Virus record (IMG/VR): IMGVR_UViG_3300042328_000969
Span: 1-58,275 of that record
Reading direction: 5' to 3' (one strand)
Length of the DNA stretch: 58,275 nt
Source: a virus
Taxonomy: Duplodnaviria; Caudoviricetes
Every line of letters begins with the position of its first letter. Position 1 is the first letter of the stretch. Positions 32,862 through 47,188 of the stretch are shown in pieces. A program made the translations under genes and the position numbers. The notes under the pieces are model-generated. The model was given only the letters and a program-made list of their open reading frames with translations. It searched no databases and was not told where the DNA came from.

Positions 32862-33047
32862 TGCAATTGGTTTTCTTCAATTAAATCAACATTTTAGCAA
32901 AATAGGCTATTAATTTTACGCTAAACAATATTAATAAAGTTAATTATCTAAAATAATAAAGTTGATTAATTAAATTAGATGAAATATTCTATAGTCCAGC
33001 CCAGAGCTGAGCGCCTTACACTTTTTAACCAAACCGGAGATAAGACC

Positions 33048-33365
33048 ATGAGCAACACATTTTTCATTAGCGACAAACAAACATTTAACCAATTAGCGCC
33101 CACCGACAAATGGGAAATTGTGCAAGAGCTTGCGCAAGCAATCATTGACGACCAACTTGTTTCAATTAGAGGTGAGATGATTGAAGAAATGGACGGGGAC
33201 TTTTACCCTGTTTTATATGGCGTTTACCGTCTTAAATTTGGCGAATTCTGTAATTACAGAGATGCAGGTGGTATCTGGGACTATGAAAAGCCTGTATCTT
33301 TTTTGAATACTTTTACTGCTAATTTAAAAGAGATAGAGGAACTATCTAACGCGGTAAACAAATAG
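33048..33365 (+). CDS. Early hypothetical protein
   Basis: ACCGGAGA RBS before ATG 33048. Confidence 0.7.
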   Translation: MSNTFFISDKQTFNQLAPTDKWEIVQELAQAIIDDQLVSIRGEMIEEMDGDFYPVLYGVYRLKFGEFCNYRDAGGIWDYEKPVSFLNTFTANLKEIEELSNAVNK

Positions 33366-33431
33366 TTCAGCGTGTAACGCCTTATTTTTAAGGCGTTATG
33401 CAGTGCGCTATTACACTAACCAAACCGGAGA
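33361..33431 (+). repeat. Early intergenic double-hairpin element, copy 1 (copy 2 at 34698-34771)
   Basis: About 70-nt imperfect direct repeat with a compensatory base-pair change. Confidence 0.85.
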
Positions 33432-33437
33432 ATAAAA

Positions 33438-34043
33438 ATGAGCTTTAAATTACACATGACGATGGGAACTGCAAAAATGCAGGATATCCCTTCTTTCAAC
33501 ACTCCTGCCTCTAGCAATCCTTTCTGCATCAAAATGAATGGATCAGCAGACAAAACAGTGGTATGTACTAGATGTTATTCGATTACTACAGAAAAGCGTT
33601 ATCCGACGTTAGTAAAAGCATTAGAACGCAATGCCGATCTGTACAAAAGAATTTTGCTCGATACCGAGTTACCGCGTTTAAATTTTGCTATTGCTCGTTT
33701 TGACAGTTTTGGCGAAGTACATAATGAAATTCATGTACTTAACTATTTTAATCTTGCGCGTAAAAACCCCGAAACCGTTTTTGGGTTCTGGACTAAGCGC
33801 AAAGATTTAATAAAAGTAGTGCTATCAATGGTTAGCAAACCGGCTAACGTCGTTTTGATTCATAGCAGCACAAAGATGAACAAAATCGACAAACTACCTG
33901 CCGGTTACGACAAAGTATTCACGGCACATAAAAAATCAGAGTTAAGCGCTAACGTCGATATCAATTGCAGTCAAAAATGCAATGATTGCAGATTGTGCTA
34001 TAGCCACAACGACACAATTTTTATTAACGAAATTGCTAAATAA
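33438..34043 (+). CDS. Gp88-like Cys-rich protein
   Basis: C...CTRCY, RFDSFGE, FWTKR, C-terminal CSQKCNDCRLC. Confidence 0.7.
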   Translation: MSFKLHMTMGTAKMQDIPSFNTPASSNPFCIKMNGSADKTVVCTRCYSITTEKRYPTLVKALERNADLYKRILLDTELPRLNFAIARFDSFGEVHNEIHVLNYFNLARKNPETVFGFWTKRKDLIKVVLSMVSKPANVVLIHSSTKMNKIDKLPAGYDKVFTAHKKSELSANVDINCSQKCNDCRLCYSHNDTIFINEIAK

Positions 34044-34056
34044 CTGGAGATATAAA

Positions 34057-34287
34057 ATGAAACTCAATAAAACTTATCAATCTACACTTGCGGCACGTCG
34101 TCAAACAACACTGATACATTCATCTTGGAGCGTATTTTACAAAGGAGAGTATATCTGTGGCGCTGTTTATAACGGAGAGTCTATCATGTCTGTTTGCTTG
34201 CCTTGCGGCTTAGTAGTATTAACCAAATCAAAAGACATTGCTAAAAAAGCAATCAGAGAATATCAAGCAGGGAGATTAGAAGCATGA
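34057..34287 (+). CDS. Early hypothetical protein
   Basis: ACTGGAGA RBS, ATG 34057. Confidence 0.6.
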   Translation: MKLNKTYQSTLAARRQTTLIHSSWSVFYKGEYICGAVYNGESIMSVCLPCGLVVLTKSKDIAKKAIREYQAGRLEA

Positions 34288-34526
34288 AAATGAAACAGGC
34301 ACATTATCAAATGATGAAGGATGCTATCGCAGCATTGCCGCGCGATCAAATGTTAGCATTCCGAGCGTGTGATCTTGGAAAGAATAAAGAAAAGTTTTTT
34401 ATATGGGGATTGTTCAAAGCGGCAAAACTACACTTTACCGCTACCGATTTTCTTTATCAGTACCTTGATGACAATCACATTGAAACAGCGCTTAAACGCA
34501 TTGCTAAAGAACTAGACTACATTTAA
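34284..34526 (+). CDS. Early hypothetical protein
   Basis: ATGA overlap; LYQYLDDNHIETALKRI motif recurrent in phage early proteins. Confidence 0.65.
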   Translation: MKMKQAHYQMMKDAIAALPRDQMLAFRACDLGKNKEKFFIWGLFKAAKLHFTATDFLYQYLDDNHIETALKRIAKELDYI

Positions 34527-34540
34527 CCGGAGATATAGAA

Positions 34541-34702
34541 ATGATTACTTATTTACTTGATAACGATACCGTCGTTCGTAGTGAAAACCGCAAAGATATA
34601 GGCGATATGATCCACGCGCAAATCTATGATTCTAACAGCGCATTAATCGACGTTAGCGGGCGTGTAGTTGACGTGCTGGAAGATTACAGCGACTGGGAAT
34701 AG
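34541..34702 (+). CDS. Early small protein (53 aa; not in ORF track)
   Basis: ACCGGAGA RBS; MITYLLDND...DYSDWE. Confidence 0.6.
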   Translation: MITYLLDNDTVVRSENRKDIGDMIHAQIYDSNSALIDVSGRVVDVLEDYSDWE

Positions 34703-34771
34703 TTCAGCGTGTAGCGCCTTAATTTAGGGCGCTATGCAGTGCGCTATTGCACTAATTAACTTAACCGGAGA
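34698..34771 (+). repeat. Early intergenic double-hairpin element, copy 2
   Basis: Matches 33361-33431. Confidence 0.85.
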
Positions 34772-34777
34772 TATAAC

Positions 34778-34873
34778 ATGAATACATTTTATGACGTAGT
34801 AGTTGGATCAATCCTTACAACAATTTTTACTGTTGTGTTTGTTGCAGAGCTGATTGTGTTGTGGGGAGAATAA
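34778..34873 (+). CDS. Early 31-aa membrane peptide (not in ORF track)
   Basis: ACCGGAGA RBS; MNTFYDVVVGSILTTIFTVVFVAELIVLWGE, a single hydrophobic helix. Confidence 0.6.
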   Translation: MNTFYDVVVGSILTTIFTVVFVAELIVLWGE

Positions 34874-34875
34874 GC

Positions 34876-35118
34876 ATGTCATTATTCAAACTTGATATTA
34901 ATCATGAATTTTCAGCTAAATGCCGCACCTGTTTTCCTAACTTGCGCTACCGGATGACTTTATCGATTGGTCAATGGGGTAAGGTTTATGGTTCAAAAAC
35001 TGATTACTTTACGGTAGATGGTAAAAAGATAGGTTTTAAAATTGTGCGCCATTATGACCGCAAAGGGTTGCCAATTTATAACGACAAACAACGCATTTAT
35101 ATTTACACCGGAGAATAA
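34876..35118 (+). CDS. Early hypothetical protein
   Basis: GGAGA RBS, ATG 34876. Confidence 0.6.
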   Translation: MSLFKLDINHEFSAKCRTCFPNLRYRMTLSIGQWGKVYGSKTDYFTVDGKKIGFKIVRHYDRKGLPIYNDKQRIYIYTGE

Positions 35119-35121
35119 GCC

Positions 35122-35358
35122 ATGATTAGTCACGCTGATTTTATGAAACAAACATACCCTGCCACCATTCCGCAATATTTTGTAAATGGTATTTACCATC
35201 AGCAATTATCGCTTGATATTGCTCGTATGGAGTACCTTAAAATTTATTTGTGGGCAACTTACACGCCATCTACTGAAAAACCGACACGCAATCCCATGAC
35301 TTACACTGAAGTAGAAATTGCAGAAATGTTTAGAATCTTTGAAGAAACTGGAGAATAA
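35122..35358 (+). CDS. Early hypothetical protein
   Basis: ACCGGAGA RBS. Confidence 0.6.
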   Translation: MISHADFMKQTYPATIPQYFVNGIYHQQLSLDIARMEYLKIYLWATYTPSTEKPTRNPMTYTEVEIAEMFRIFEETGE

Positions 35359-35360
35359 AA

Positions 35361-35922: not shown

Positions 35923-35946
35923 AGCCGGTTAATTACCGGCTTTTTT
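35923..35946 (+). terminator. Intrinsic terminator ending the early operon
   Basis: AGCCGGT/ACCGGCT stem plus T7. Confidence 0.8.
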
Positions 35947-35949
35947 GTC

Positions 35950-36201: not shown

Positions 36202-36212
36202 CAGTTTAAATT

Positions 36213-38729
36213 TTAAATTCCGTAATGATCCTTAACTTTCTTGATAACTTCATTCTCGTCTAACGTGCTTCTACGCCAAATCGTGTGTTTTTTCCGCCCT
36301 CCATCGCTTGTCGGTACATCGATTCTCTTGTGAACTTTCTCGTAGCCAATTTGTAAAAGTATTCGAGTCAATGCCGACGTTTTCGGGAGCTTTAAAACTG
36401 AAGGTTCAAACTCCTCAAAATTAAGTTTACCGAGTAGCGTAATATCGACTATGTTTTCGTTAATAACCTCACAGTGGTAATGTGCGATCAAATCTTTCAC
36501 TTCTTCAAATTCATGTGACACAGAATAGCCTATCATCTTTTCACGCGACAAGGTTTTAGGCGCTCGACCTTTCGCTGAAAAGTCTGGACTTATCACCCGA
36601 TTCATAAAGTAATGGCAAAGTGCATCCATCCGTCGATCAGTTTCTAAAAACAGTTTCTCAAAATACCGGTTAGTTTCCTGCTCACCACCAAGCAGTGCAA
36701 ACAAATGTTCCTCCGACTGACAGCGACTATACATAACGCAGTAACGACGATCCCCATTGGTAATCGGCAGCGCATCTTGGTAATTAGTCAAAAGAAAATA
36801 CGACGTGAAATTCGGAACAGTCCGAGAGTTAGAAAACTTTTCTTCAATCTGTATCGTTTCGTTTGTAATATATGGCTTCATCGTATCGATAATCGACCAG
36901 CGGTTATCGCCCGATAGCCGAATCTCCTCGACAATATTCAACACCGACCCATACGCCCAACCGCTAAACGTTCCTTTCGTGAATTGCTTCGGATCGAGTT
37001 GCGTGGCATTACTCCCAAGTATCCCCTGCAATATCTTTGTAAAGTATGTTTTACCGCCACCTTGAGTCCCCTGCAAAAGGACTGCCCAGTTCACTTTACT
37101 GCCAATGTTTTGCACAACGTGACACATCCAGTCCAGCAATATCACCCGCTCTTTTGGCTCAACCAGCGTAAATTCCAAGTGCTTGAGCATCATATCCACA
37201 ACACGCAACCCATCGTCGTCCATCACTTCACATGGCAACACACCGCGTTTCTTATACGAGTTTACATATCGCAGTCCATCGTTATCATTAACGAAAATTC
37301 CATCGTTCTTACTCGCCCAATACATGGTATCGATGACTGTATCCATTTTCCAATCAACCAGCGCCATCGACGATGCTGATCTTTCCGCTGCGACGCACTC
37401 ATCCATGCGATCAAACTCCGCGTTGAACGCTTCGCGCTTGATAGAGTAGCCGTGCTTTAAGTTATGAAACTCCATTGGGCGCTGCACATAAACCCAGTTA
37501 CGCAACCAAGACGGCATCTCCTCAACAACCAAGCCACCTTTCTTTGGTGGGCAAAGCTCACGAACAATAGCCGACTTCGTCATCCCCTCACCTTTACCCC
37601 ACCGGTCATAAATGTCCTGTGCGATTTGCTGACGCTTGGTAAGTGTCACCGCGCTGAGTGGTAATTTACGCAACTTATTGCGCACATCCTCATATGCCCT
37701 GTCATTATCAACCGACAGACCTTCCGACCCAGTGACAAAGATTTCTTTCACCTGCTTCTCGACAATCTCCCCAACACTTACTCCGCTGTCCTTGACCATC
37801 TTAATCACTGTGGCAAACGTCAACGGGCGCACTTTCTTTTCCGTCTTGAATGATTGCCATTTCTTATCAATATCTGCCGCGTTGAACTTATCCGAGTTAG
37901 CAGACCAGTGAAGCCAAAGAAGTTTACCCTCATCCGATCCTCTATATTGATGATGCAATGCCTGCCCGACGGTAATCCACGTCGAGTAATCACCTGCCGA
38001 TTCAACCAGTGCATCGAGATTAGCTTCGACCAGCGCATCGCTGACATCAATTGGCTCATGCGCGAGTGCAAGCGATAGTCCCTGCATATCGTCTGCGTCA
38101 TCATCCGTATCATCTACATCGAATTCAACTGTCAAGTATTCCTTGACAGTTCCCTGCACCAGCTTTTCAACAGGAAAGGCAAGCGCTACCTCTACATCAA
38201 CCTCACTGCCTTCCATCACCATCACAAAAGACGACTCAATCGACTCAGCACTAACACTCGGCATATACATAAACTGAGCAGGCTTAAATGCACTGTCATC
38301 AATAATAAAACTGCTAAACTCCGACGCGAACCAGCGCATCACGGCAACGTATTCCTCCGCGCTGACCTCCCGTGACAATGGCAACACTATACGAAAGCGA
38401 TTAGCGTCATCTGTACTACGCCATGTTGAGTACGCAACCAGCGCAAAGCCTGTCATCTCCAGCTCAAACTCAATCTCTCCTTTAGTCATTGCGCATTCAT
38501 CAACGTCAATGGTCAAAAGCGAACGCCCAAGCAGGTTCTCCGTGTTGCGATGACCACCACTGAACCCACCGCCACAGAACCAGCCTTCCTGCTCTTTGGT
38601 CTTTGCAACTTTGTGCTTACCAAGTACCGTGCAAATTCGCTCCCAACTCACTTCTACATTGCGACAGACAGCACTGTTCTTATCCCCGCGACTTATGCGG
38701 TACGTTTTAGTAGACTCCACCATAAACAA
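36213..38729 (-). CDS. Primase-helicase (primase domain + PriCT-2-like + SF3/DUF5906-like helicase)
   Basis: LTIDVD, YSTWRS...RFRIVLPL; YSTWITVGQALH...WS; Walker A GTQGGGKT. Confidence 0.9.
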   Translation of the reverse strand: MFMVESTKTYRISRGDKNSAVCRNVEVSWERICTVLGKHKVAKTKEQEGWFCGGGFSGGHRNTENLLGRSLLTIDVDECAMTKGEIEFELEMTGFALVAYSTWRSTDDANRFRIVLPLSREVSAEEYVAVMRWFASEFSSFIIDDSAFKPAQFMYMPSVSAESIESSFVMVMEGSEVDVEVALAFPVEKLVQGTVKEYLTVEFDVDDTDDDADDMQGLSLALAHEPIDVSDALVEANLDALVESAGDYSTWITVGQALHHQYRGSDEGKLLWLHWSANSDKFNAADIDKKWQSFKTEKKVRPLTFATVIKMVKDSGVSVGEIVEKQVKEIFVTGSEGLSVDNDRAYEDVRNKLRKLPLSAVTLTKRQQIAQDIYDRWGKGEGMTKSAIVRELCPPKKGGLVVEEMPSWLRNWVYVQRPMEFHNLKHGYSIKREAFNAEFDRMDECVAAERSASSMALVDWKMDTVIDTMYWASKNDGIFVNDNDGLRYVNSYKKRGVLPCEVMDDDGLRVVDMMLKHLEFTLVEPKERVILLDWMCHVVQNIGSKVNWAVLLQGTQGGGKTYFTKILQGILGSNATQLDPKQFTKGTFSGWAYGSVLNIVEEIRLSGDNRWSIIDTMKPYITNETIQIEEKFSNSRTVPNFTSYFLLTNYQDALPITNGDRRYCVMYSRCQSEEHLFALLGGEQETNRYFEKLFLETDRRMDALCHYFMNRVISPDFSAKGRAPKTLSREKMIGYSVSHEFEEVKDLIAHYHCEVINENIVDITLLGKLNFEEFEPSVLKLPKTSALTRILLQIGYEKVHKRIDVPTSDGGRKKHTIWRRSTLDENEVIKKVKDHYGI

Positions 38730-38735
38730 TCCTCG

Positions 38736-38954
38736 TTATCTTTTAATTATTGGTAAATCAACCGCCTTAATTGCCCCATCGGTTAATTGCTCAACCTGTA
38801 TCGCCCTGTTTGCCGGTATCTTTCCTTCAGTTACCCAATACGACACCGCTGCTTTAGTCACACCCAACTTCTTTGCTAACACAACCTGCTCACCACCAAA
38901 CCACTGCACCACATCATCAACGGTCACACCGTCATAAAATTCTTCATTTTCCAT
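38736..38954 (-). CDS. Cro-like HTH regulator
   Basis: FGGEQVVLAKKLGVTKAAVSYWV..GKIP; likely start ATG 38954. Confidence 0.85.
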   Translation of the reverse strand: MENEEFYDGVTVDDVVQWFGGEQVVLAKKLGVTKAAVSYWVTEGKIPANRAIQVEQLTDGAIKAVDLPIIKR

Positions 38955-39018
38955 TTGCATCTCTTTGTGAGTTAAGTTAAGATTGACTCTCATTTTACAA
39001 CAACAGAGGAAAAACACA

Positions 39019-39693
39019 ATGAATGATTTAACAATACTCACAAACACTCAACTTGGTGAATTCATTTCACTCTCATTAATACATGGCACAAACACCCAGT
39101 TTAGCTATGAGTTATTGCATGAAGTGGCAGAGCGCTTAGTGCAAACGGATGAAATTATCAAATCTGGAATCAGTCACGGCATTCACGAAACGCTAACTAA
39201 GCAATCAACTGCATTCAAATTCAGACTTGAGGATGTTGTCAAAACGCTTGATGAAACGTTAGCGCCTGCAATTATTGAGGATAATAAAGAAACTGTTGAA
39301 AGCATCACTGATATTGAGCATCACGAAGCAATGAACAAAGCGATGAAAGTGGATAGGGATGAAGGCAGAGCAGGATCATCTAGCGCTAAGAAAACAGTTA
39401 TTGAACAATTAGCCGATCAAATAAAACCTAAAGCAGTAAAGAAAAAAGAAAAGCCTGTAGAAGTAGAAGTGGAAGAACTCGCTGAAGAACCTGTTGAAGA
39501 AGTAAAAGAACCCGAACTTCTCATAACATCTAAACTATTAAAAGAAATAGCGCTTGAACTGCGTCAACGTAAAGCCATTTCAAAAGAGCAAATTGTGGAT
39601 AAGTTAACTGAACTAGGTGCGTCTAGCACAATGACTCTTGCGCCTAAACACTATGTTGAATTTTATAACTTCTTGGAGAGCTTCAATGTCTAA
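39019..39693 (+). CDS. Hypothetical protein (replication cluster)
   Basis: GAGG RBS before ATG 39019. Confidence 0.65.
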   Translation: MNDLTILTNTQLGEFISLSLIHGTNTQFSYELLHEVAERLVQTDEIIKSGISHGIHETLTKQSTAFKFRLEDVVKTLDETLAPAIIEDNKETVESITDIEHHEAMNKAMKVDRDEGRAGSSSAKKTVIEQLADQIKPKAVKKKEKPVEVEVEELAEEPVEEVKEPELLITSKLLKEIALELRQRKAISKEQIVDKLTELGASSTMTLAPKHYVEFYNFLESFNV

Positions 39694-40150
39694 TTTAGTA
39701 TTGACTGTAACTGAAAGATATGAACTTTTGGATGTTATATGTGAGATTCGCCCTATTCTCGAATCAGTGACGCATGAGGAAACTAAACGTAAATTATATG
39801 AATTGCAAGGTATGTTGCGATCAAAGGTTGCGTGTTCAGTAGACACTGAAAAGTATGTAAAAGATTTAGATTTTTATATTGGCGAAGAATATTGTGGCGA
39901 TTGGCATGCCGCTATGATAAACGAAGAAGATGGATGGGAAATTCCGACTATTGATGATTTAATAAAAATAAGTGAATGTATTGATAATCCACTTATGTAC
40001 ACGGCTGATGAACTTTACTGGTCAAATGAATCTCATTGTAAAACAAAGGCAACCTGCTACTTTTTTTATAATGATGACATTGTAACTGTATCTAAAAAAC
40101 ACGCTCATTATTATTTTTATATTTCGCGCAAAGGTGAGAAAAATGACTAA
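39686..40150 (+). CDS. Hypothetical protein (GWEIPTIDDL...YWS motif, DUF1566-like)
   Basis: GGAG RBS before ATG 39686. Confidence 0.55.
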   Translation: MSNLVLTVTERYELLDVICEIRPILESVTHEETKRKLYELQGMLRSKVACSVDTEKYVKDLDFYIGEEYCGDWHAAMINEEDGWEIPTIDDLIKISECIDNPLMYTADELYWSNESHCKTKATCYFFYNDDIVTVSKKHAHYYFYISRKGEKND

Positions 40151-41288
40151 CGAAGAACAACCTAAACACTCTTTACTGAGCGCAAGTGGTAGTGCTACTT
40201 GGCTATATTGCTCCGGTAGCGTCGCAGCGCAAAAGCCTTACAAAGAATCCCGTAGCGCATTTGCGGACGAAGGCACGGCAGCGCATGAGCTTGCAGAGAT
40301 ATGCTTGAAAGGTGATCTCAATCCGTTTGATTTTGAAGGTAAGCAATTGCCCGAAACGAACTGGATAACAGTAGATAAAACCATGTGCCACCATGTAAAT
40401 GATTACATGGATTTCATTGCAGAACACAAAGGTCATAAAATCTATGAGCAGAAACTCGACTACAGCGAGTACGCGCAGGACGGGTTTGGTACAGCCGATT
40501 GCATCATTCTAAATGACGATAACGTAACGATTATCGACTTGAAGTACGGTAAAGGCGTAAAAGTCTATGCTGATACTACGCAAACTAAAATCTACGCGCT
40601 AGGAGTCTATAGCGAGTTCGGTATGCTCGAAGATATCAAGACCATCACAATGATTATCTACCAACCGCGACTAGACCATATCGATGAATTGACAATAAGC
40701 ATTGAGGAGTTACTAGCATTTGGTGAGTGGGTAAAAGAGCGAGCAGAATTGGCTATGCAGGAAAACCCCCCGCTGACTGCTGGTGAGAAGCAGTGTCAAT
40801 GGTGTAAACACAAAGCACGATGCCCAGAGCTTATGCGCTACACAGAAAATGCCATTCAAAACGAGTTTGGTTTTTTCGACGAACTACCCAGTGTAAACAG
40901 GTTATCCGACGCAGAGCTTAACCTTGCACTGAGTAGCGCAACACTGATTAAATCTTGGCTAAATGCCATTGAAGAACACGTCAGAGAGCGCTTAGAATCG
41001 GGCAATGGCTTTACCGGCTACAAACTTGTCGAAGGTCGTAGTTCACGCGATTGGGCAAATATTGATGAGGCAGAAAGTGCGTTACGAATTGACCATACAG
41101 ACGAGGAACTTTACGAAATGAATTTTATCTCTGTAGCTAAATTCGAGAAGTTGGTAGGCAAGAAAAACATAAAAGACTTTGAAAATCTGATAGTTAAAAA
41201 ATCGGGTAAACCAACCGTTGTGCCAGAAAGTGACCCCAGAAAATCGTTGTCAGTTTCTGCAAATGATTTTTCTGAATTTGACGATTGA
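40143..41288 (+). CDS. DUF2800 Cas4-like PD-(D/E)XK exonuclease
   Basis: HSLLSAS..WLYC, EGTAAHEL, GTADC, IDLKYGKG, CQWC...C. Confidence 0.9.
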   Translation: MTNEEQPKHSLLSASGSATWLYCSGSVAAQKPYKESRSAFADEGTAAHELAEICLKGDLNPFDFEGKQLPETNWITVDKTMCHHVNDYMDFIAEHKGHKIYEQKLDYSEYAQDGFGTADCIILNDDNVTIIDLKYGKGVKVYADTTQTKIYALGVYSEFGMLEDIKTITMIIYQPRLDHIDELTISIEELLAFGEWVKERAELAMQENPPLTAGEKQCQWCKHKARCPELMRYTENAIQNEFGFFDELPSVNRLSDAELNLALSSATLIKSWLNAIEEHVRERLESGNGFTGYKLVEGRSSRDWANIDEAESALRIDHTDEELYEMNFISVAKFEKLVGKKNIKDFENLIVKKSGKPTVVPESDPRKSLSVSANDFSEFDD

Positions 41289-41313
41289 CAGATGCACTAA
41301 ATCAATCTAAACT
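41285..41313 (+). promoter_or_regulatory. Sigma70-type promoter (TTGACA-17-TAAACT)
   Basis: TTGACA at 41285-41290 and TAAACT at 41308-41313. Confidence 0.7.
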
Positions 41314-41447
41314 TAACTCAACTTATCTCTCCGGTTAAGTTAAAACGAGGATGGGAAATCACTTAATAGGCGATTTATCAATACCCCATCCTCACCTAAA
41401 TCCCATATACCCATAATCCCATATAGCCATAAGGCAGGAAGGTCAAA

Positions 41448-41972
41448 ATGTCAGATACACAAATTAAATTAGGTGATGTTCGTTTAAGTTTTCCATCTTT
41501 GTTTCGCAAAGCGGTTTTCGATAATGTTGAAACCAAATTCGAAGCAAATTTTTTGATGGAAAAAAACAGCAAAAACCATAAAATTACCCAAGCCGCAATT
41601 GATAAATTTATTGCGCAAACATTTCCCAACGGTGCGCCCAAAAACCTAGTTATCACTTGTTTTCAAGATGGGGATAAAAAAGGCATTGAAGGGTATGATG
41701 ACATGATGTCGCTTAAAGGCACATCAAATAAACGCATTCCAGTATTCGATAAAGACCGCTCACCTATTACAGAAGAAGATAACAAGGTGTATGCTGGGTG
41801 CTATGTAAACGCCATTTTTGACTTCTGGTATTCAAGTCATAAAAGAGGCGGTAACCAAATTCTATGTAATCTCCTTGGTGTTCAATTCAAGAGAGATGGC
41901 GATCCATTCTCTGATGCTAAAGTCGCAAGCGCTGATTTCTTTGACGACGAATCAGAAGAAGATGATTTCTAA
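41448..41972 (+). CDS. Single-stranded DNA-binding protein (DUF2815 / T7 gp2.5-like)
   Basis: VRLSFPSLF, YAGCYVNA, acidic tail ending in Phe (DDESEEDDF). Confidence 0.9.
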   Translation: MSDTQIKLGDVRLSFPSLFRKAVFDNVETKFEANFLMEKNSKNHKITQAAIDKFIAQTFPNGAPKNLVITCFQDGDKKGIEGYDDMMSLKGTSNKRIPVFDKDRSPITEEDNKVYAGCYVNAIFDFWYSSHKRGGNQILCNLLGVQFKRDGDPFSDAKVASADFFDDESEEDDF

Positions 41973-41987
41973 ATACTCTGTGTCCTC

Positions 41988-42054
41988 AGTGTGGTGAAAA
42001 GACGATTGGATTAACATCGTAAAAGTTAATTGACAGCTTGGAAAGACAAGCACT
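41988..42054 (+). ncRNA. C4-antisense-like RNA, copy 1
   Basis: Three-stem layout: AGTG / GTGAA / ACGAT..ATCGT / TGACA / GCTTG-GAAAGA-CAAGC / CACT. Resembles the P1 C4 / P4 CI family as recalled. Confidence 0.55.
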
Positions 42055-42230
42055 ATCAATAATCAACTTTACGAAGAATTGACAACCTTGGCTGGCAAGA
42101 ATCCAAACGTGAACCAGATATAAAGGATTGGCGATGTTGGAATCGACCAATCGGGTTGGCTCAAGACGCAGGTAGAATACGGTGTACAACGTATCGAAAT
42201 GTATAAGTAAGAGAGTTGATTATTGATAGT
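42052..42230 (+). ncRNA. Stem-enclosed structured RNA 1
   Basis: Perfect 17-bp inverted repeat 42052-42068/42214-42230. Confidence 0.55.
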
Positions 42231-42351
42231 ACGCGCACAGCGCACCTGTAATGGCCAGACGCTCAGAAATAGGAGACTTGGGATCGCTTGAAAGTACAGC
42301 GACGAATACTGAGATTACTATTGTGACAGCTTGGAAAGACAAGCACTATCA
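42231..42351 (+). ncRNA. C4-like RNA variant, copy 2
   Basis: 28-nt exact repeat TGACAGCTTGGAAAGACAAGCACTATCA (42324-42351 = 42031-42058), preceded by nested stems CTCAG/CTGAG and TCGCT/AGCGA. Confidence 0.45.
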
Positions 42352-42530
42352 CTAAAAGCATTGCTTGTAGCGTACCGCAATTCGCAACCTTGCAGCCTTT
42401 AATATCGGTAAAGCGCACTAGCTACGCGCTCGATTCGGGTTGAGATTACCGGTGACGGTAATTCACTAACTACATAGGGAAGATTAGAACTGATTGTAGT
42501 GGGGTAGTAAACAGTGCTTTTAGTGATAGT
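42345..42530 (+). ncRNA. Stem-enclosed structured RNA 2
   Basis: 16-bp perfect inverted repeat 42345-42360/42515-42530 enclosing several hairpins. Confidence 0.55.
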
Positions 42531-42653
42531 TAAACTGATTATTTAGCTATTGGCTTTTGTTGAATGTTTTAAGCACACTATATTTCGAGTGTATAGTGTG
42601 TTGCATTAAATCCTAGACACGCATATTGGCGTATGCGTGTCGCCTAATTGAGT

Positions 42654-42756
42654 TTTTAAAAGTAAGTTTGCGGGTGTCCTCATAGACCCAAAAAAGGTAT
42701 GAGTCAGTAGCTTTATATGTTCACTCTTATAAAATCAAGCAAACTTACTTTTAAAA
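42654..42756 (+). ncRNA. Stem-enclosed structured RNA 3
   Basis: 18-bp perfect inverted repeat 42654-42671/42739-42756. Confidence 0.55.
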
Positions 42757-42780
42757 CCTCAAGCTCCACCTAAAGACCTC

Positions 42781-42816
42781 ACCGACAATTTGTTACTCCA
42801 GATTGTCGGTTTTTTT
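42781..42816 (+). terminator. Terminator/attenuator upstream of DNA polymerase
   Basis: ACCGACAAT/ATTGTCGGT stem plus a T-run, ending about 23 nt before the pol ATG. Confidence 0.7.
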
Positions 42817-42839
42817 ATATTCACAAATAGGACACCCCT

Positions 42840-44636
42840 ATGAATACTTACATTATTGACACTGAGTGTTATAAAAACTATTGGTTATTTTTAGCCGTTA
42901 ACCACAAAACAGGTACATCGCTTGAAATAGAATTATTTGGCGAAGATGCAAAGTTAAATGAGCAGCAAGCCAAAAAGATACAGCGCCTATTTCTTAATCA
43001 TGAAACCGTTTCATTCAATGGGTTAAACTACGATATACCTGTTATACATGGCGCATTGGACGCATGGGATTGCTCAAAATTACACAAACTTTCCACAAAA
43101 ATAATCACAGATCAGCGCGTTACTTGGCAGATACTCAAAGAGCATAACCTCCAAGTCCCCACTTACGATAAACATATCGACATTATCGAAATCCCCATTG
43201 GACAGGCATCGCTTAAAATTTACGGTGGACGTATTCACACGCAGAAAATGCAAGACTTGCCAATTGATCCTAATGCGTTAATAAAAGATACTGAGCGTAG
43301 TTTGATGCGCAAGTATTGCAGAAACGATACGCAAGTTACAGGTGAACTGTTTGACAAGCTCAAAGGGCAGATAGACTTGCGCAAAGAGATGACACAGCAA
43401 TACGGTATCAACCTTAATTCAAAATCCGATGCGCAAATTGCTGAAACTATTATAAAATCAGAACTTTACGAGAAAACTGGCGAGCATTATCGTGCCACAA
43501 AGTTTGATGATAAATACACGTTTACTTATCGAAATCCAGATATTATTCAGTTTAAAACACAGGAACTCTGCGACATTTTTGACCAGCTAATTTATGAAAC
43601 CTTCACGCTAAAAGATAACGGTAGTGTTGAATTGCCTAAATGGTTAAGCGAACCTATTAAAATCGGCAATGCGTCATATCAAATGGGCATTGGTGGATTA
43701 CATTCACGCGAAGTTGAGCAACACATTAAATCCAGCAGTGGTTACTTTTTATCTGATTTTGATGTTGCCAGTTACTACCCATCAATTATCCTGCATCAAA
43801 GGTTATTTCCAGAATCAATGGGAGAGAATTTCCTTAACCTATATCGAGAGATTGTAAAAAAACGTATTACAGCGAAACACACAGGCGATAAAGTTACTGC
43901 CGATACACTTAAAATCGTACTCAACGGGAGTTTTGGTAAATTCGGTAGTAAATACAGTAGCTTATACTCACCACAATTACTCCTGCAAACAACAATCACT
44001 GGTCAGCTATCACTTCTCATGCTGATTGAAGAACTTGAATTAAACGGTATTCGCGTAGTTAGTGCAAACACCGATGGGATTGTGACGTATTACCACGAAA
44101 GTCAAATACCTACGCTACAAGATATTCTATTTAATTGGGAAATTCAAACCAGCTATACGCTAGAGCAAACCGATTACCGTGAACTGGCATCGCGTGATGT
44201 AAATAACTATATTGCCGTGAAGCTCGACGGTAAAACTAAATGTAAAGGGTGCTTTGGTGAAGCGTCAATGAGTAAAAACCCAGATGGTTTAATCATCTAT
44301 GAGGCGGTTGCTAAATTTATCGCTGACGGTACACCAATTGAAAAAACCGTTACCGAGTGTGAGGATATTAGAAAGTTTGTCACAGTTCGCAGAGTTACCG
44401 GTGGCGCATTGTTTAGAGGGGAGTATCTTGGTAAAGCAGTTCGCTTTTATCACAGTTGCGATTTAGGTCTTGTTGATATGTCACTTGTTTATGCAAAGAA
44501 TGGAAACAAAGTCCCGATGTCACAAGGCTGTCGTCCATTGATGAATTTGCCAAATGCTTTTCCAGAGGATGTTAATTTTTATTATTACTACACTAAGGCA
44601 AATGAAGTGTTAAAAGGTGTTGGCTACAAAGAATAG
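42840..44636 (+). CDS. DNA polymerase, family B-like
   Basis: Exonuclease IDTE and FNGLNYD; DVASYYP; LKIVLNGSFGK; SANTDG. Confidence 0.9.
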   Translation: MNTYIIDTECYKNYWLFLAVNHKTGTSLEIELFGEDAKLNEQQAKKIQRLFLNHETVSFNGLNYDIPVIHGALDAWDCSKLHKLSTKIITDQRVTWQILKEHNLQVPTYDKHIDIIEIPIGQASLKIYGGRIHTQKMQDLPIDPNALIKDTERSLMRKYCRNDTQVTGELFDKLKGQIDLRKEMTQQYGINLNSKSDAQIAETIIKSELYEKTGEHYRATKFDDKYTFTYRNPDIIQFKTQELCDIFDQLIYETFTLKDNGSVELPKWLSEPIKIGNASYQMGIGGLHSREVEQHIKSSSGYFLSDFDVASYYPSIILHQRLFPESMGENFLNLYREIVKKRITAKHTGDKVTADTLKIVLNGSFGKFGSKYSSLYSPQLLLQTTITGQLSLLMLIEELELNGIRVVSANTDGIVTYYHESQIPTLQDILFNWEIQTSYTLEQTDYRELASRDVNNYIAVKLDGKTKCKGCFGEASMSKNPDGLIIYEAVAKFIADGTPIEKTVTECEDIRKFVTVRRVTGGALFRGEYLGKAVRFYHSCDLGLVDMSLVYAKNGNKVPMSQGCRPLMNLPNAFPEDVNFYYYYTKANEVLKGVGYKE

Positions 44637-44687
44637 AAACTCACGATAATTTTTTCGTTTGAGTTTATTTTACATTGAGGAATAAAA

Positions 44688-44987
44688 ATGCTTGAAAAAG
44701 AAATTGAAAAATACCTGTGCGATCAAATTAAAAAAGTAGGTGGAACGTGTGAAAAATTTACATCGCCCAATCGTCGCTCAGTCCCAGATCGTTTAATTAC
44801 TTTACCATTTCAGCCGATATTTTTTGTTGAATGCAAAGCGCCTAAAAAGAAACCCACTGAAGCACAAGAACGCGATCATCAAAGACGACGCGAGATGGGC
44901 GTCCATGTCTATGTCATTGACTCAAAAGAAAGCGTTGATACTTTATTGCTTTATCGATTACCAGTGGAAGGCGATTATGCGCACTAG
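44688..44987 (+). CDS. VRR-NUC domain nuclease
   Basis: EKEIE...KFTSP...VPDR...FVECK...Q. Confidence 0.9.
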   Translation: MLEKEIEKYLCDQIKKVGGTCEKFTSPNRRSVPDRLITLPFQPIFFVECKAPKKKPTEAQERDHQRRREMGVHVYVIDSKESVDTLLLYRLPVEGDYAH

Positions 44988-47148
44988 AGCAGAACTCCGT
45001 CATTACCAAGTCAGAACCTCCTCGTTTCAAATTGAACAAGAGCGAACACTTTGTGCGCTTAAAATGGGGATGGGGAAAACAGCTTCTACGCTCACTACAA
45101 TCCACGATTTAATTGATGCTTGTGTGATTACCAAAGCACTTGTTATCGCGCCACTGAGAGTAGCTAATAGCGTCTGGGCGCAAGAAGCAAAGGAATGGGA
45201 ACATCTCAAAGATTTAAAATTCAAAATATGTACAGGCACAGAGCAAAAGCGCCTAGCCGCCTTGCACCATGATGCGGATGTTTATGTTATTAATCGAGAA
45301 AACGTGGTCTGGTTAGTGAATCACTATAGGGATAAGTTCCCCTTTCAAATGGTGGTGGTAGATGAGTGTTTTCCAGAGGGTACAATGATATTGACCCCTA
45401 CAGGACTTCGTGATATAAAAACTCTTGAAATTGGAGAATCTGTAATAACTTCAATTGGAGAAAAACCTATTACTAATATCTTTAAAAAAGAATCTTATGA
45501 CCTTATCAAATTATATTTATCAGACGGAACAAGTATTGAATGTACAGGAAATCATCCTTTTGCAACAGAAAAGGGGTGGATTCAAGCACGGGGATGTCGG
45601 GGTTTGCATTTTGTGCGGAACAATCTATATGAAACGCAAATTAACTCATCAGTTATGCAGCCGGTCTTGTTCAAAAAAACATATGCACAATATCAGAACA
45701 GAAGAACACAAAAAAGAAGTCATAGAAAAAACTTCAAAAACAGCAAAAAAGAATTACGCATCTGGACAAAGAACCACTTGGAACAAAGGGTTAGAATGGT
45801 CAGACGAAGTAAAACAAAAATTAAGTTTAGCTCACAAACTTTCTGGGCATCAACCAATTGTGCGCGGAGGGAATGGGAAAATTTCAGAATGCGAGAAGAT
45901 GATGAGGGAAATCTTACCGTCAGAATGGATAATGCAGTGTGCAATACCCACAAAAATGGGAAGAACCAGTGGCTATCCAACTTGCTACAAAGTAGATTTC
46001 GGAATTCCGCAAAAGAAAATTGCGTTAGAAGTAGATGGAAACTCTCACAGATCGCGAAAGCGGTTGGACGAAAAGAAAGATACCTTTCTTCAATCGTTAG
46101 GGTGGACAGTATTGAGAATATCCAACAATCGCGCTCAAGAAATGTATTCAATTTACAAATTAACGGGATCAATGATTATTTTGCCAACGGAATTTTAGTA
46201 CACAATTGCTCCAGCTTTAAAAGTGATAAAAGTAAACGTGTCAAAGCACTGCGCAAAGCATTACCTTATGTTCACTACATCACTCTACTGACAGGTACAC
46301 CCTCACCCAATGGCTTACTCGACCTGTGGTCACAATGCTATTTAGTAGATAACGGAAAAGCGCTTGGGCGAACCATGACTATGTATAAAAGCCGATTCTT
46401 TGAACAGGATTATAGCGGTTACAAATACACCCCTCGCAAAGATTCACAAAAGAAAATTGAAGCATTGATAGCGCCATTTACCATATCAATGGAAACAAGT
46501 GATTACCTTGATATGCCAGACTACATTGAATTATATGAAGAAATTCAATTAGAACCTGCGGTAATATCTAAATACAAGCAGTTTGAAAAAACACTATATC
46601 TTGATTTTGAAAATAGCGAAGTTGAAGCATTAAGCGCAGCGACACTTGCCAATAAGTTATTGCAGTATTGCGCTGGTGCTGTGTACGTCGATGAGTTTAA
46701 AAACTATGAAATAGTCCATGATGCAAAACTTGATGCGCTTGCAGACATTATTGAGCAGAACGATGGGGAGAATATCCTTGTTGCCTATAACTTCAAAAGC
46801 GATCTTGAGCGACTACTTAAACGCTTTCCAGACGGGCGAGTTCTCGATAAGCATCAAAGCACTATTGATGAATGGAACAATGGCGAAATACCCCTTCTAT
46901 TTGCGCATCCTCAATCAGCCGGTCACGGTCTTAATATCCAACACGGTGGTAGCATGATTGTGTGGTTTTCACTGAGCTGGAGTTTGGAGTATTACCAGCA
47001 GTTTAATGCTCGATTGTACCGGCAAGGACAGACTATGGCGGTAAGGATTATCCACTTAATCTGCAAAGGCTGCATTGACGAGCGAATCATTAACGTATTG
47101 AAAGATAAAGATATTGTGCAATCTGACTTACTTCGTGCATTAAAATAA
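44977..47148 (+). CDS. SNF2-like helicase containing an intein
   Basis: LRHYQ, MGMGKT, VVVDE|intein|CSSFK, LTGTP, GHGLNIQ, QFNARLYRQGQ; likely start ATG 44977. Confidence 0.92.
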   Translation: MRTRAELRHYQVRTSSFQIEQERTLCALKMGMGKTASTLTTIHDLIDACVITKALVIAPLRVANSVWAQEAKEWEHLKDLKFKICTGTEQKRLAALHHDADVYVINRENVVWLVNHYRDKFPFQMVVVDECFPEGTMILTPTGLRDIKTLEIGESVITSIGEKPITNIFKKESYDLIKLYLSDGTSIECTGNHPFATEKGWIQARGCRGLHFVRNNLYETQINSSVMQPVLFKKTYAQYQNRRTQKRSHRKNFKNSKKELRIWTKNHLEQRVRMVRRSKTKIKFSSQTFWASTNCARREWENFRMREDDEGNLTVRMDNAVCNTHKNGKNQWLSNLLQSRFRNSAKENCVRSRWKLSQIAKAVGRKERYLSSIVRVDSIENIQQSRSRNVFNLQINGINDYFANGILVHNCSSFKSDKSKRVKALRKALPYVHYITLLTGTPSPNGLLDLWSQCYLVDNGKALGRTMTMYKSRFFEQDYSGYKYTPRKDSQKKIEALIAPFTISMETSDYLDMPDYIELYEEIQLEPAVISKYKQFEKTLYLDFENSEVEALSAATLANKLLQYCAGAVYVDEFKNYEIVHDAKLDALADIIEQNDGENILVAYNFKSDLERLLKRFPDGRVLDKHQSTIDEWNNGEIPLLFAHPQSAGHGLNIQHGGSMIVWFSLSWSLEYYQQFNARLYRQGQTMAVRIIHLICKGCIDERIINVLKDKDIVQSDLLRALK
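45367..46206 (+). mobile_element. Intein (280 aa) in helicase Walker B
   Basis: Block A CFPEGT, block B CTGNHPF, block F VFNLQING, block G YFANGILVHN, +1 Cys. Confidence 0.92.
45497..46198 (+). CDS. Vsr/DUF559-like (EDxHD-type) homing endonuclease overprinted in the +1 frame of the intein
   Basis: CxxC...CxxxC, NUMOD3-like WNKGLEWSDEVKQKLSLAHK, SECE, YKVDF, ALEVDGNSH...D, GWTVLRI. Start uncertain (TTG 45455, ATG 45497 or later). Confidence 0.85.
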   Translation: MTLSNYIYQTEQVLNVQEIILLQQKRGGFKHGDVGVCILCGTIYMKRKLTHQLCSRSCSKKHMHNIRTEEHKKEVIEKTSKTAKKNYASGQRTTWNKGLEWSDEVKQKLSLAHKLSGHQPIVRGGNGKISECEKMMREILPSEWIMQCAIPTKMGRTSGYPTCYKVDFGIPQKKIALEVDGNSHRSRKRLDEKKDTFLQSLGWTVLRISNNRAQEMYSIYKLTGSMIILPTEF

Positions 47149-47160
47149 GTTAAGTTAAGG

Positions 47161-47188
47161 TTGACTGAGGGGATAAAATCAATAAAAT
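47161..47188 (+). promoter_or_regulatory. Sigma70-type promoter (TTGACT-16-TAAAAT) preceded by GTTAAGTTAAG
   Basis: Motif match upstream of a small-gene cluster; 10-bp hairpin at 47218-47251. Confidence 0.5.

What the first reader, a model, noticed from the sequence alone, without database searches (positions are those of the whole stretch)
41285..41343. Transcript 5' end antisense to the shared RBS of the early genes
Seen: just after a TTGACA-17-TAAACT promoter, 41328-41343 (TCTCCGGTTAAGTTAA) is the exact 16-nt reverse complement of 34756-34771, an early-gene RBS. Its core pairs with ACCGGAGA at 33033, 33424, 34526, 34764 and 35107, and with ACTGGAGA at 34043 and 35347. That variant position is a G-U wobble, as expected for RNA pairing. 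CTTATCT(CT)CCGGT also pairs with 33033-33044 with a 2-nt bulge. Inference: a middle-phase sRNA or SSB leader silences translation of the whole early cassette through one standardised RBS.
Basis: partly seen in the sequence, partly recalled or inferred. Interest (0 to 1): 0.8.

Follow-up and report, generated by a model that had tools for sequence, protein, structure and literature searches.

The report
SSB gene promoter with anti-RBS leader
A conserved promoter and folded leader in front of a freshwater phage's DNA-binding (SSB) gene begins with a mirror image of the ribosome-binding tag used by the phage's early genes; the match is real, but there is no sign yet that it switches those genes off.

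Summary
41328-41343 is the exact reverse complement of 34756-34771, and every listed core site exists.

Is it more than chance? A 16-nt inverted match alone is not: 53 of 100 shuffled genomes have one. A profile of the seven early ribosome-binding regions gives a different answer. Its best antisense hit in the genome is 41319-41344 (19.1 bits, next 9.9), reached by 1 of 200 shuffles.

The element is a sigma-70-type promoter plus the 5' leader of a Gp2.5-like SSB gene. Promoter and leader head are invariant in about 40 related contigs while the promoter spacer varies. There is no terminator before the gene, so it is not a discrete sRNA.

Pairing with 4-5 of 10 early start regions is thermodynamically feasible. 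Nothing shows selection for it:
- The 16-nt match exists in only 4 of 20 genomes.
- The one variant leader pairs worse with its own sites.
- 15 distant relatives lack any anti-RBS.

My estimate is about 55% a purely cis promoter and leader, and about 25-30% a trans antisense brake. This scan has noted similar anti-RBS hairpins in at least 8 other phage genomes (unchecked).

The parts
41285..41313 (+). Sigma-70-type promoter: TTGACA (41285-90), 17-nt spacer, TAAACT (41308-13)
   Evidence: 10 of 12 consensus positions. In 29 related loci the two hexamers and the 3' half of the spacer are invariant while the 5' half of the spacer varies (GATGCAC, CAAGTAA, GGCGCAA, GTTTATG). In L013 the promoter and leader stay with SSB behind an inserted segment.
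41300..41318 (.). Operator-like site AATCAATCTAAACTTAACT overlapping the -10. It is a one-mismatch copy of AGTYAA-N7-TTRACT.
   Evidence: 3 hits with at most 1 mismatch (38970, 41300, 47148) against 1.01 expected; 7 of 100 shuffles have at least 3. Binding by the Cro-like protein is inferred, not shown.
41320..41341 (+). Predicted transcript start (about 41320) and weak 5'-terminal hairpin HP1: arms AACUUA and UAAGUU, loop UCUCUCCGGU carrying the anti-RBS core
   Evidence: -3.4 kcal/mol, z -1.97; 8 pairs, one U-A to U.G change in the L030 type. The start position is inferred from the -10 position.
41328..41343 (+). The 16-mer TCTCCGGTTAAGTTAA, exact reverse complement of 34756-34771
   Evidence: Its first 14 nt are identical in 27 of 28 related loci (exception L030) and in 9 of 9 relevant metagenome contigs.
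41347..41393 (+). Stable leader hairpin HP2 (GAGGAUGGG...CCCAUCCUC with inner stem AAAUC/GAUUU)
   Evidence: The inner pair is CG in 8, UG in 2 and UA in 1 of 11 distinct leaders (one compensatory change). The outer stem is invariant.
41394..41447 (+). G-poor, predicted mostly unpaired 3' part of the leader, with the SSB Shine-Dalgarno AGGAAGG (41436-42)
   Evidence: This part varies in length and sequence among relatives.
41448..41972 (+). Gp2.5-like single-stranded-DNA-binding protein gene
   Evidence: phrog_112, E 8.4e-36.
40134..41288 (+). Upstream exonuclease gene; its stop overlaps the -35
   Evidence: phrog_69, E 1.9e-107.
34756..34780 (+). Best predicted target: the translation-initiation region of a 31-aa hydrophobic peptide gene (34778-34873)
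   Evidence: region predicted unpaired; net cofold gain -21.7 kcal/mol.
33021..35360 (+). Early cassette with the standardised sites AYYGGAGA at 33033, 33424, 34043, 34526, 34764, 35107 and 35347
   Evidence: The label 'early' is inferred from position and gene content.
38736..38960 (-). Cro-like DNA-binding regulator gene, a candidate binder of the operator-like sites
   Evidence: PF14549 P22_Cro, E 5.4e-15, 55.3 bits (cut-off 30.2).
38970..38988 (.). 19-bp pseudo-palindrome AGTTAAGTTAAGATTGACT, 10 nt from the Cro-like gene's start
   Evidence: Invariant in all 32 relatives aligned.
47148..47166 (.). Second copy, AGTTAAGTTAAGGTTGACT; its TTGACT is the -35 of promoter-like TTGACT-16-TAAAAT (47161-88)
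   Evidence: Invariant in all 9 relatives aligned.

Best explanation
41285-41447 is the host-RNA-polymerase (sigma-70-type) promoter and structured 5' untranslated leader of the phage's Gp2.5-like SSB gene.

How it most likely works:
- Transcription most likely starts near 41320 (inferred from the -10 position).
- The first 22 nt can form a weak 5'-terminal hairpin.
- A stable second hairpin follows at 41347-41393, then a G-poor open stretch running into the Shine-Dalgarno.
- I read these elements as acting in cis. By analogy, they would protect the 5' end of an abundant replication-phase mRNA and set SSB translation, possibly with SSB feeding back on its own leader as T4 gp32 does.
- An operator-like site over the -10 may let the phage's Cro-like protein shut the promoter.

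The leader head is an inverted copy of the phage's standard early ribosome-binding region, so it can pair with several early messages. On present evidence that complementarity is a property of the sequence, not a demonstrated regulatory circuit.
For: Shown:
- Gene identities.
- Promoter-type conservation, with hexamers fixed and the spacer variable.
- Promoter and leader travel with SSB in L013.
- No terminator before 42781, so the segment is a leader.
- HP2 has one compensatory and two wobble changes.
- About 30 of 43 distant relatives (33-50% exonuclease identity) place a 54-105 nt spacer between exonuclease and SSB. In those spacers I read a promoter-like site, a small 5' hairpin and an A/C-rich open leader, with none showing an anti-RBS loop. 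Most of the others have a gap of 13 nt or less (by eye). So promoter plus 5' hairpin is the more widely shared feature.
- The whole block from about 41296 to 41395 is invariant, not just the anti-RBS.
- Nothing indicates selection for pairing.
- One RNA-library contig covers SSB and the leader of a relative and ends at 41344 (weak).

From the literature (passages of PMC3014915 read): T4 gp32 represses its own translation through a 5' structure followed by an unstructured stretch overlapping the ribosome-binding site.

Recalled, not from any call: 5'-terminal stem-loops stabilise E. coli mRNAs.
Against: - The leader head matches the early-RBS profile in antisense far better than anything else in the genome (19.1 against 9.9 bits; 1 of 200 shuffles). 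A purely cis role does not predict this.
- Shuffles that keep the core still pair worse on average than the real head (0 of 300).
- The loop sequence is invariant, where a mere stabiliser hairpin could drift.
- HP1 is weak (-3.4 kcal/mol).
- No cis partner for the anti-RBS exists in the SSB transcript.
- The transcription start, SSB autoregulation and Cro binding are all inferred.
Confidence: 0.55

Rival explanations
1. Trans-acting antisense brake. The 5' end of the abundant SSB mRNA, or a processed 5' fragment of it, presents UCUCUCCGGUU in or next to a hairpin loop. It pairs with AACCGGAGA(G) in several early translation-initiation regions and blocks 30S binding once replication genes are on. 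The strongest target would be the 31-aa hydrophobic peptide gene at 34778.
For: - Antisense profile hit 19.1 bits, 1 of 200 shuffles.
- Early start regions pair better than others: mean -18.4 against -10.6 kcal/mol, Mann-Whitney p 8e-6; 0 of 300 shuffles, and 0 of 300 core-kept shuffles for the mean. This test is post hoc.
- Net cofold gains are -21.7, -16.6, -15.8, -14.9 and -12.4 kcal/mol for five early genes.
- The target region 34753-34776 is predicted unpaired.
- The 9-nt core is present in leader and sites in all 20 genomes examined.
- The loop is invariant in about 40 contigs.
- No cis partner exists.
- c4 RNA of P1/P7 works by loop-presented pairing around a ribosome-binding site (PMC12197685, passages).
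Against: - No covariation. 16 nt in 4 of 20 genomes, 8-11 nt in 16 of 20.
- L030-type leaders have a longest match to their own sites of 10-11 nt, where the common leader would have 11-15 (4 genomes).
- Target flanks and positions -1 and -2 change in ways that break pairing, for example TTAACG|GGAGC in 4 of 16 orthologues plus one TTAACG|GGAGA.
- Only 4 of 11 early-region sites in the window share at least 9 nt.
- Non-early genes score as well as some early ones (51877 thymidylate synthase -12.8, 15618 -11.6).
- No signal in 15 distant relatives.
- It is not a discrete sRNA.
- The one RNA contig stops at 41344, just past the 16-mer.
Confidence: 0.27
2. DNA-level operator. GTTAAGTTAA and the pentamer repeats around the start site (TAAAC TTAAC TCAAC TTATC ... 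GTTAA GTTAA) are binding sites for the Cro-like regulator. The match to 34756-34771 arises because the same motif happens to sit beside that ribosome-binding site.
For: - GTTAAGTTAA occurs 4 times exactly against 0.25 expected; 0 of 100 shuffles have 4 or more. All four are intergenic.
- Two copies are part of the invariant 19-bp AGTTAAGTTAAGRTTGACT next to the Cro-like gene and at promoter 47161.
- 41300-41318 is a one-mismatch copy over the -10.
Against: - In the L030-type lineage the leader copy is changed to GTTGAGTTGT, while the 38970 copy stays intact in the one L030-type genome aligned there.
- That A-to-G change keeps an RNA U.G pair but breaks the DNA palindrome.
- The copy at 34756 is not conserved in most relatives.
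- The operator idea does not explain the TCTCCG half of the 16-mer or the profile hit.
- The pattern statistic is modest (7 of 100 shuffles).
Confidence: 0.1
3. Coincidence or evolutionary relic: an inverted remnant of an early-type gene junction, or a chance match in AT-rich regulatory DNA, with no function of its own.
For: - A 16-nt inverted match occurs in 53 of 100 shuffles, and an unrelated 17-nt one exists in the window.
- One antisense core copy is about the expected number.
- On the minus strand the region reads as an early-type site followed by only TTG-AGT-TAA (read).
Against: - Profile test: 1 of 200.
- Strict invariance where the neighbouring spacer has randomised.
- Position exactly at a predicted transcript start.
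Confidence: 0.08

Closest known systems
c4 antisense RNA of phages P1/P7 (review PMC12197685, passages read)
   Same: A phage RNA with loop-presented sequence complementary to the ribosome-binding region of a phage message encoded elsewhere. The proposed effect is a block of translation.
   Different: c4 is a discrete processed small RNA with one target operon and genetic proof. Here the segment is the 5' end of an mRNA leader with no terminator, no Rfam match, several putative targets and no covariation.
T4 gene 32 autogenous translational operator (review PMC3014915, passages read)
   Same: The leader of an SSB gene has a 5' structured element followed by an unstructured stretch that runs into the ribosome-binding site. 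The message is expected to be abundant in the replication phase.
   Different: The protein family differs (Gp2.5-like). The structure here is a hairpin, not a shown pseudoknot. The open stretch is C/A/U-rich without UUAA(A) repeats. No binding data exist.
T4 RegB/S1 and RegA shut-off of early messages (PMC3014915; abstract of PMC1702504 seen in the listing)
   Same: The biological logic is the same: early genes are silenced through their GGAG-type initiation regions. The strong RegB-site consensus GGAGRAYARAA is matched exactly at 33427, 35350 and 47935.
   Different: Those are protein effectors. No RegB homologue was found in the genome (PF10715), though the control genomes did not ring either, so absence is not proven. 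The motif is not enriched overall (10 hits with at most 1 mismatch against 6.9 expected).
5'-terminal stem-loop mRNA stabilisers such as E. coli ompA (recalled, no call)
   Same: A hairpin starts at or within a few nucleotides of the predicted 5' end. A small 5' hairpin is also seen in distant relatives' SSB leaders (by eye).
   Different: HP1 is weak (-3.4 kcal/mol). The 5' end is not mapped.
Type I toxin-antitoxin pairs with trans-encoded antisense RNA, such as TisB/IstR-1 (recalled, no call)
   Same: The best predicted target is a 31-aa hydrophobic peptide whose start region is complementary to an RNA made elsewhere.
   Different: Toxicity is unknown. The complementary RNA is an mRNA leader. 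Complementarity to this orthologue is interrupted or reduced in most relatives.

Membership tests
Sigma-70-type bacterial promoter | -35 and -10 hexamers near consensus with a 16-18 nt spacer | tested here: met
   TTGACA-17-TAAACT, 10 of 12. The scan as a whole is not above chance (42 found against 51.6 expected).
Sigma-70-type bacterial promoter | Hexamers conserved and spacer free to vary among relatives | tested here: met
   (29 loci)..
Sigma-70-type bacterial promoter | Mapped transcription start | tested here: inconclusive
   One contig from one RNA library ends at 41344 and does not run into the exonuclease gene. Contigs cannot show a start.
Discrete trans-acting small RNA (c4-like) | Own promoter and own 3' end (terminator or processing site) | tested here: not met
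   A promoter is present. No terminator-like site lies on the + strand between 41285 and 42781. Processing was not testable.
Discrete trans-acting small RNA (c4-like) | Match to the Rfam C4 family or any other Rfam family | tested here: not met
   Searches gave only unrelated chance-level hits.
Base-pairing antisense regulator (any form) | Complementarity to target initiation regions beyond chance, in an accessible segment | tested here: met
   The loop is largely unpaired. The target is unpaired.
Base-pairing antisense regulator (any form) | Covariation of regulator and targets across relatives | tested here: not met
   The variant leader pairs worse with its own sites. There are only two leader types, so power is low.
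Base-pairing antisense regulator (any form) | Effect on target translation or stability | not testable with these tools
   Needs reporter, toeprint or infection experiments.
T4 gene-32-type autogenous SSB operator | 5' structured nucleation element followed by an unstructured stretch overlapping the ribosome-binding site | tested here: inconclusive
   HP2 plus the G-poor open region 41394-41447. No pseudoknot was tested and there is no binding evidence.
T4 gene-32-type autogenous SSB operator | gp32-family SSB | tested here: not met
   The protein is Gp2.5-like (phrog_112).
Cro/CI-type operator | Repeated pseudo-palindromic site near the regulator gene and at regulated promoters | tested here: inconclusive
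   AGTYAA-N7-TTRACT at 38970, 47148 and, with 1 mismatch, 41300. That is 3 hits against 1.01 expected. The 16-mer itself lies outside these sites.

The most novel reading that the evidence does not exclude
The 5' end of the SSB mRNA doubles as a multi-target antisense RNA. It is an inverted copy of the phage's own standard early ribosome-binding region, displayed at a 5'-terminal hairpin. It titrates early messages at the onset of replication, first of all the message for a 31-aa hydrophobic peptide. This would be an RNA counterpart of the T4 RegA/RegB shut-off. Together with the similar, unchecked notes of this scan from at least 8 other uncultured phages, it would point to a widespread phage strategy of standardised initiation regions read by one anti-RBS RNA.
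Probability: 0.27. Interest if true: 0.7.

Novelty: new member of a known kind. Interest (0 to 1): 0.35.

Why it matters
If the cis reading is right, this is an ordinary, well-conserved promoter and leader of a replication gene in an uncultured freshwater phage. It is useful for annotation only.

If the antisense reading is right, it would be an mRNA leader acting in trans on a family of early messages through a shared ribosome-binding tag. That would be a simple RNA-only temporal switch. It would also explain why these phages standardise ACC-GGAGA sites beyond what 16S pairing needs. The case is cheaply testable with a two-plasmid reporter and compensatory mutations.

Tried and rejected
N4-like virion RNA polymerase and hairpin promoters: I considered this because of the 3578-aa ORF but did not test it. 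The replication genes are not N4-like and the nearest cultured phages are below 47% identity in the DNA polymerase. I therefore assumed host-polymerase promoters.

Close DNA relatives among cultured phages: none.

Rfam: no family at gathering score. Only chance-level unrelated hits at E up to 5 in 41250-42850. No tRNAs.

Cis sequestration of an SD-like partner by the anti-RBS: no GGAGAG, CGGAGA, CCGGAG or AACCGG in 41344-42815.

A pyrimidine-only rule at positions -1 and -2 as a sign of G-U-tolerant pairing is rejected. Over 209 sites in 23 genomes, position -1 is C 104, G 60, T 40, A 5 and position -2 is C 119, G 40, A 34, T 16.

Leader peptide: ATG at 41351 opens a 21-codon frame, read by eye. 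It abuts GAGG with no spacer, and it is cut to 6 codons in L028 and L013, so I did not pursue it.

RegB homologue: none found, but the controls did not ring either.

Duplex energies with the whole 128-nt leader are uninformative, because long gapped duplexes with non-early genes score best.

Distant-relative duplexes: the lowest shuffle fractions were 0.02 (L059, L068, top-3 measure). The pairings were gapped and not centred on ribosome-binding sites.

Search for relatives of intermediate distance: the exonuclease search jumps from 84% to 50% identity, and the SSB search found only 80-100%. Pattern scans found only the two known leader types.

RNA runs: X23 and X22 gave only a few short pieces. 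Parts without cover are not evidence. X24 depth is highest over SSB and the 42186-42679 non-coding region (13-47 against 0-6 elsewhere), but contig depth cannot rank genes.

Supplementary files of papers were not consulted.
Full report
**Context.** The window is a complete 58,275-bp virus record, found in lake and freshwater metagenomes. It has no close cultured relative: no megablast hit, and the best DNA-polymerase identity is 46.6%. Genes at 1-32685 and 53661-58273 lie on the minus strand; I take them to be structural genes from their position and size, without testing this. A plus-strand block begins at about 33000 with ten small genes of unknown function, called the 'early cassette' here by inference from position. 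After a bidirectional terminator-like hairpin (35923-35941) comes a minus-strand pair: primase-helicase at 36213-38729 and a Cro-like regulator at 38736-38960. Plus-strand replication genes follow: exonuclease 40134-41288, Gp2.5-like SSB 41448-41972, DNA polymerase 42840-44636 and helicase. The finding lies in the 159-nt exonuclease-SSB spacer.

**Is it more than chance?** Three tests give three answers.
- An exact inverted match of at least 16 nt somewhere in a genome of this size and composition is unremarkable. The real genome has 2, one of them an unrelated 17-mer at 4643/54811. Shuffles give a mean of 0.70, and 53 of 100 have at least one.
- One antisense copy of the 8-nt core is about what is expected. 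ACYGGAGA is expected 1.6 times over both strands and is observed once on the antisense side.
- The third test asks whether anything in the genome mirrors the early translation-initiation consensus. I built a 26-nt profile from the seven AYYGGAGA sites and scanned both strands. The best antisense hit in the genome is 41319-41344 at 19.1 bits; the next is 9.9. Only 1 of 200 dinucleotide-shuffled genomes reaches 19.1 on one strand. With the 34764 site left out the score is 17.0 and 2 of 200 reach it.

Read backwards, the leader head is GTTTTAACTTAACCGGAGAGATAAG. That resembles the whole early site type (for example CTTTTTAACCAAACCGGAGATAAGACC at 33021), not only the core.

**What the element is.**
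- In 29 related loci (84-99% exonuclease identity) the TTGACA, the TAAACT and the 3' half of the spacer are invariant. The 5' half of the spacer has diverged into at least four versions. This is the signature of a real promoter.
- In L013 an extra segment separates exonuclease and SSB, and the promoter and leader stay with SSB.
- No terminator-like site follows on the plus strand until 42781-42810. The segment is therefore the 5' untranslated leader of the SSB message, not a free-standing small RNA. Rfam has nothing for it.
- Taking the start as about 41320 (7 nt after the -10, inferred), the RNA begins with a weak hairpin, HP1: AACUUA/UAAGUU with loop UCUCUCCGGU, -3.4 kcal/mol, z -1.97.
- A stable hairpin HP2 follows at 41347-41393, then a G-poor open region up to the Shine-Dalgarno AGGAAGG.
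- Across 11 distinct leaders, HP2's inner stem shows one compensatory and two wobble changes, and HP1 shows one U-A to U.G change.
- The block from about 41296 to 41395 is invariant apart from HP2's loop and two substitutions in one lineage. This holds in the loci, in 35 viral contigs found by an HP2 pattern and in 9 of 9 relevant metagenome contigs (two further hits were unrelated).

**Wider family.** Of 43 distant relatives (33-50% exonuclease identity), about 30 keep a 54-105 nt spacer between exonuclease and an SSB-sized ORF; most of the others have a gap of 13 nt or less. In the spacers shown I read a promoter-like site at the end of the exonuclease gene, a small hairpin soon after the -10, and an A/C-rich open leader (by eye). 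None of these leaders carries an anti-RBS loop. In 15 of them tested against all start regions in the locus there is no convincing excess of complementarity; the lowest shuffle fractions were 0.02 and the pairings were gapped and off the ribosome-binding site. Promoter plus 5' hairpin is the more widely shared feature, and the anti-RBS is specific to the window's lineage.

**RNA evidence.** Three RNA-library runs were laid on 32800-47600. One freshwater metatranscriptome (X24) holds contigs of a relative. One 730-nt contig (depth 34) covers 41556-42037 and, across a diverged stretch, a further 56 nt ending at 41399. By its length it ends at 41344 and does not continue into the exonuclease gene, although the upstream sequence is invariant among relatives. 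This is one contig in one run, the tables were truncated, and contigs cannot show ends. It is a weak hint that a transcript 5' end lies near here. It does not show that the 16-mer is in the RNA.

**Can the leader pair with early messages?** Thermodynamically, yes.
- The 30-nt head pairs better with the ten early start regions than with the other 59: mean -18.4 against -10.6 kcal/mol, Mann-Whitney p 8e-6.
- It also pairs better than 300 of 300 shuffles, and better on average than 300 of 300 shuffles that keep TCTCCGG in place (post hoc).
- Allowing for intramolecular structure, cofolding gives net gains of -21.7 (34778), -16.6 (33048), -15.8 (35122), -14.9 (34541) and -12.4 (33438) kcal/mol. 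The other five early genes give -10.0 to -7.2. The best non-early genes are 51877 (thymidylate synthase) at -12.8 and 15618 at -11.6.
- The best target site is predicted unpaired and belongs to a 31-aa hydrophobic peptide gene.
- The anti-RBS has no partner within the SSB transcript, so a cis anti-SD role is not supported.

**Is pairing selected?** The relatives say no, or at least give no support.
- The leader head is invariant, but the site orthologous to 34756-34771 is not. It reads TTAACTTAACCGGAGA only in the window, L009, L011 and L017. In most others it is TTAACTTAAACCGGAGA (a one-base bulge), and in L004/5, L006/27, L026 and L030 it takes other forms.
- The longest exact complementarity between the leader and any early site is 16 nt in 4 of 20 genomes and 8-11 nt in 16 of 20.
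- The only variant leader (L030 type, GCTCTCCGGTTGAGTTG; four genomes) has a longest match of 10-11 nt to its own sites. The common leader would have 11-15. Its two substitutions moved away from complementarity.
- Target positions -1 and -2 before GGAG are not restricted to pyrimidines. One orthologue group reads TTAACG|GGAGC in 4 of 16 genomes, with one more TTAACG|GGAGA; both break the extended pairing.
- In the window, 4 of 11 early-region sites share at least 9 nt. Three early genes (34284, 34876, 35509) have GGGAGA or GGGGAGA sites with only 5. 'The whole early cassette' is too strong.
- With only two leader types the covariation test has little power. The 9-nt core (UCUCCGGUU against AACCGGAGA) is present in leader and sites in every genome, so it is uninformative.

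**The operator alternative.** GTTAAGTTAA occurs four times exactly against 0.25 expected, always between genes. Two copies belong to a 19-bp pseudo-palindrome, AGTTAAGTTAAGRTTGACT. One lies 10 nt from the start of the Cro-like gene (38970-88). In the other (47148-66) the TTGACT is the -35 of a promoter-like TTGACT-16-TAAAAT, which shares AATCAA...TAAA with the SSB promoter. Both are invariant in all relatives aligned, 32 and 9. A one-mismatch copy (41300-41318) overlaps the SSB -10 (3 hits against 1.01 expected; 7 of 100 shuffles have at least 3). A Cro-type operator set is therefore plausible and may regulate this promoter. It does not explain the 16-mer, for four reasons. The 16-mer lies outside these sites. 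Its GTTAAGTTAA is lost in the L030-type lineage, while the 38970 copy is intact in the one L030-type genome aligned there. The A-to-G change there preserves an RNA U.G pair rather than a DNA palindrome. And the TCTCCG half is not part of the operator motif.

**Verdict.** The most economical reading is a conserved promoter and structured leader acting in cis on SSB expression. By analogy, that would mean 5' protection and translational setting, possibly SSB autoregulation as for T4 gene 32 (PMC3014915, passages), with possible Cro-type repression. Its first 25 nt are an inverted copy of the phage's own early initiation region. I put this at about 55%. The trans-antisense reading remains open at about 27%. 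The mirror relation is unlikely to be chance, pairing is feasible, the loop is strictly conserved, and c4 RNA of P1/P7 is a precedent (PMC12197685, passages). But it is a leader rather than an sRNA, it covers a minority of early genes, and every evolutionary test available came out neutral or negative. The DNA operator reading (about 10%) and relic or chance (about 8%) take the rest.

**Relation to other notes of this scan.** A word search returned at least eight follow-up notes on other uncultured phages describing hairpin loops antisense to a shared ribosome-binding motif, some claiming covariation. These are unchecked AI notes. They either indicate a recurrent phage strategy or a recurrent reader bias, since any genome with a standardised site is likely to hold one mirror copy. 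They did not change my scores.

Noticed in passing
38970-38988 and 47148-47166, with 38736-38960 (-): An invariant 19-bp pseudo-palindrome AGTTAAGTTAAGRTTGACT occurs twice. One copy lies 10 nt from the start of a P22_Cro-family gene. In the other, the TTGACT is the -35 of a promoter-like site. Together they are a candidate operator set for the Cro-like regulator.
   Followed up: partly
41973-42840: About 870 nt between SSB and the DNA polymerase have no ORF of 60 aa or more on the + strand. The region has several long inverted repeats (I3, I9, I23), a direct repeat of about 28 nt (42031 and 42325, by eye) and a strong terminator at 42781-42810. Contigs from the RNA library X24 have their highest depth here (not rankable). 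No Rfam match. It could be a structured RNA array or a replication origin.
   Followed up: partly
33366-33437 and 34703-34777: A repeated intergenic element of about 75 nt in the early cassette (about 84% identity). It has a strong hairpin followed by GCAGTGCGCTATTRCACTAA just before the ribosome-binding site. The fold is -28.3 kcal/mol, z -2.81. It may be a terminator or processing site, or a recombination junction.
   Followed up: no
33021-35360 and loci L003-L036: The early genes are joined by standardised junctions (TTAACYWAACCGGAGAWATAA...ATG). At two of them the upstream gene ends ...T-G-E-stop inside the next gene's ribosome-binding site. Relatives carry 4 to 13 such sites with different gene sets. 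This suggests cassette shuffling at the junctions.
   Followed up: partly
34778-34873: A 31-aa hydrophobic peptide gene (MNTFYDVVVGSILTTIFTVVFVAELIVLWGE). An orthologue group of 26 sites was found across the 23 genomes examined. Function unknown.
   Followed up: no
33427-33437, 35350-35360, 47935-47945: Exact matches to the T4 RegB/S1 strong-site consensus GGAGRAYARAA (consensus from PMC3014915). No RegB homologue was detected.
   Followed up: partly
L013:3062-4633: One relative carries an extra segment of about 1.6 kb between the exonuclease gene and the SSB promoter. Its content was not examined.
   Followed up: no
47195-47255: The hairpin CCTACTGCC...GGCAGTAGG is preceded by an A-run on the + strand, so it reads as an intrinsic terminator for the minus strand inside a plus-strand gene block (by eye). 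It is conserved in 9 relatives.
   Followed up: no
4643-4659 and 54811-54827: A perfect 17-nt inverted match between distant late-region positions, longer than the finding's 16-mer. It is probably chance.
   Followed up: no
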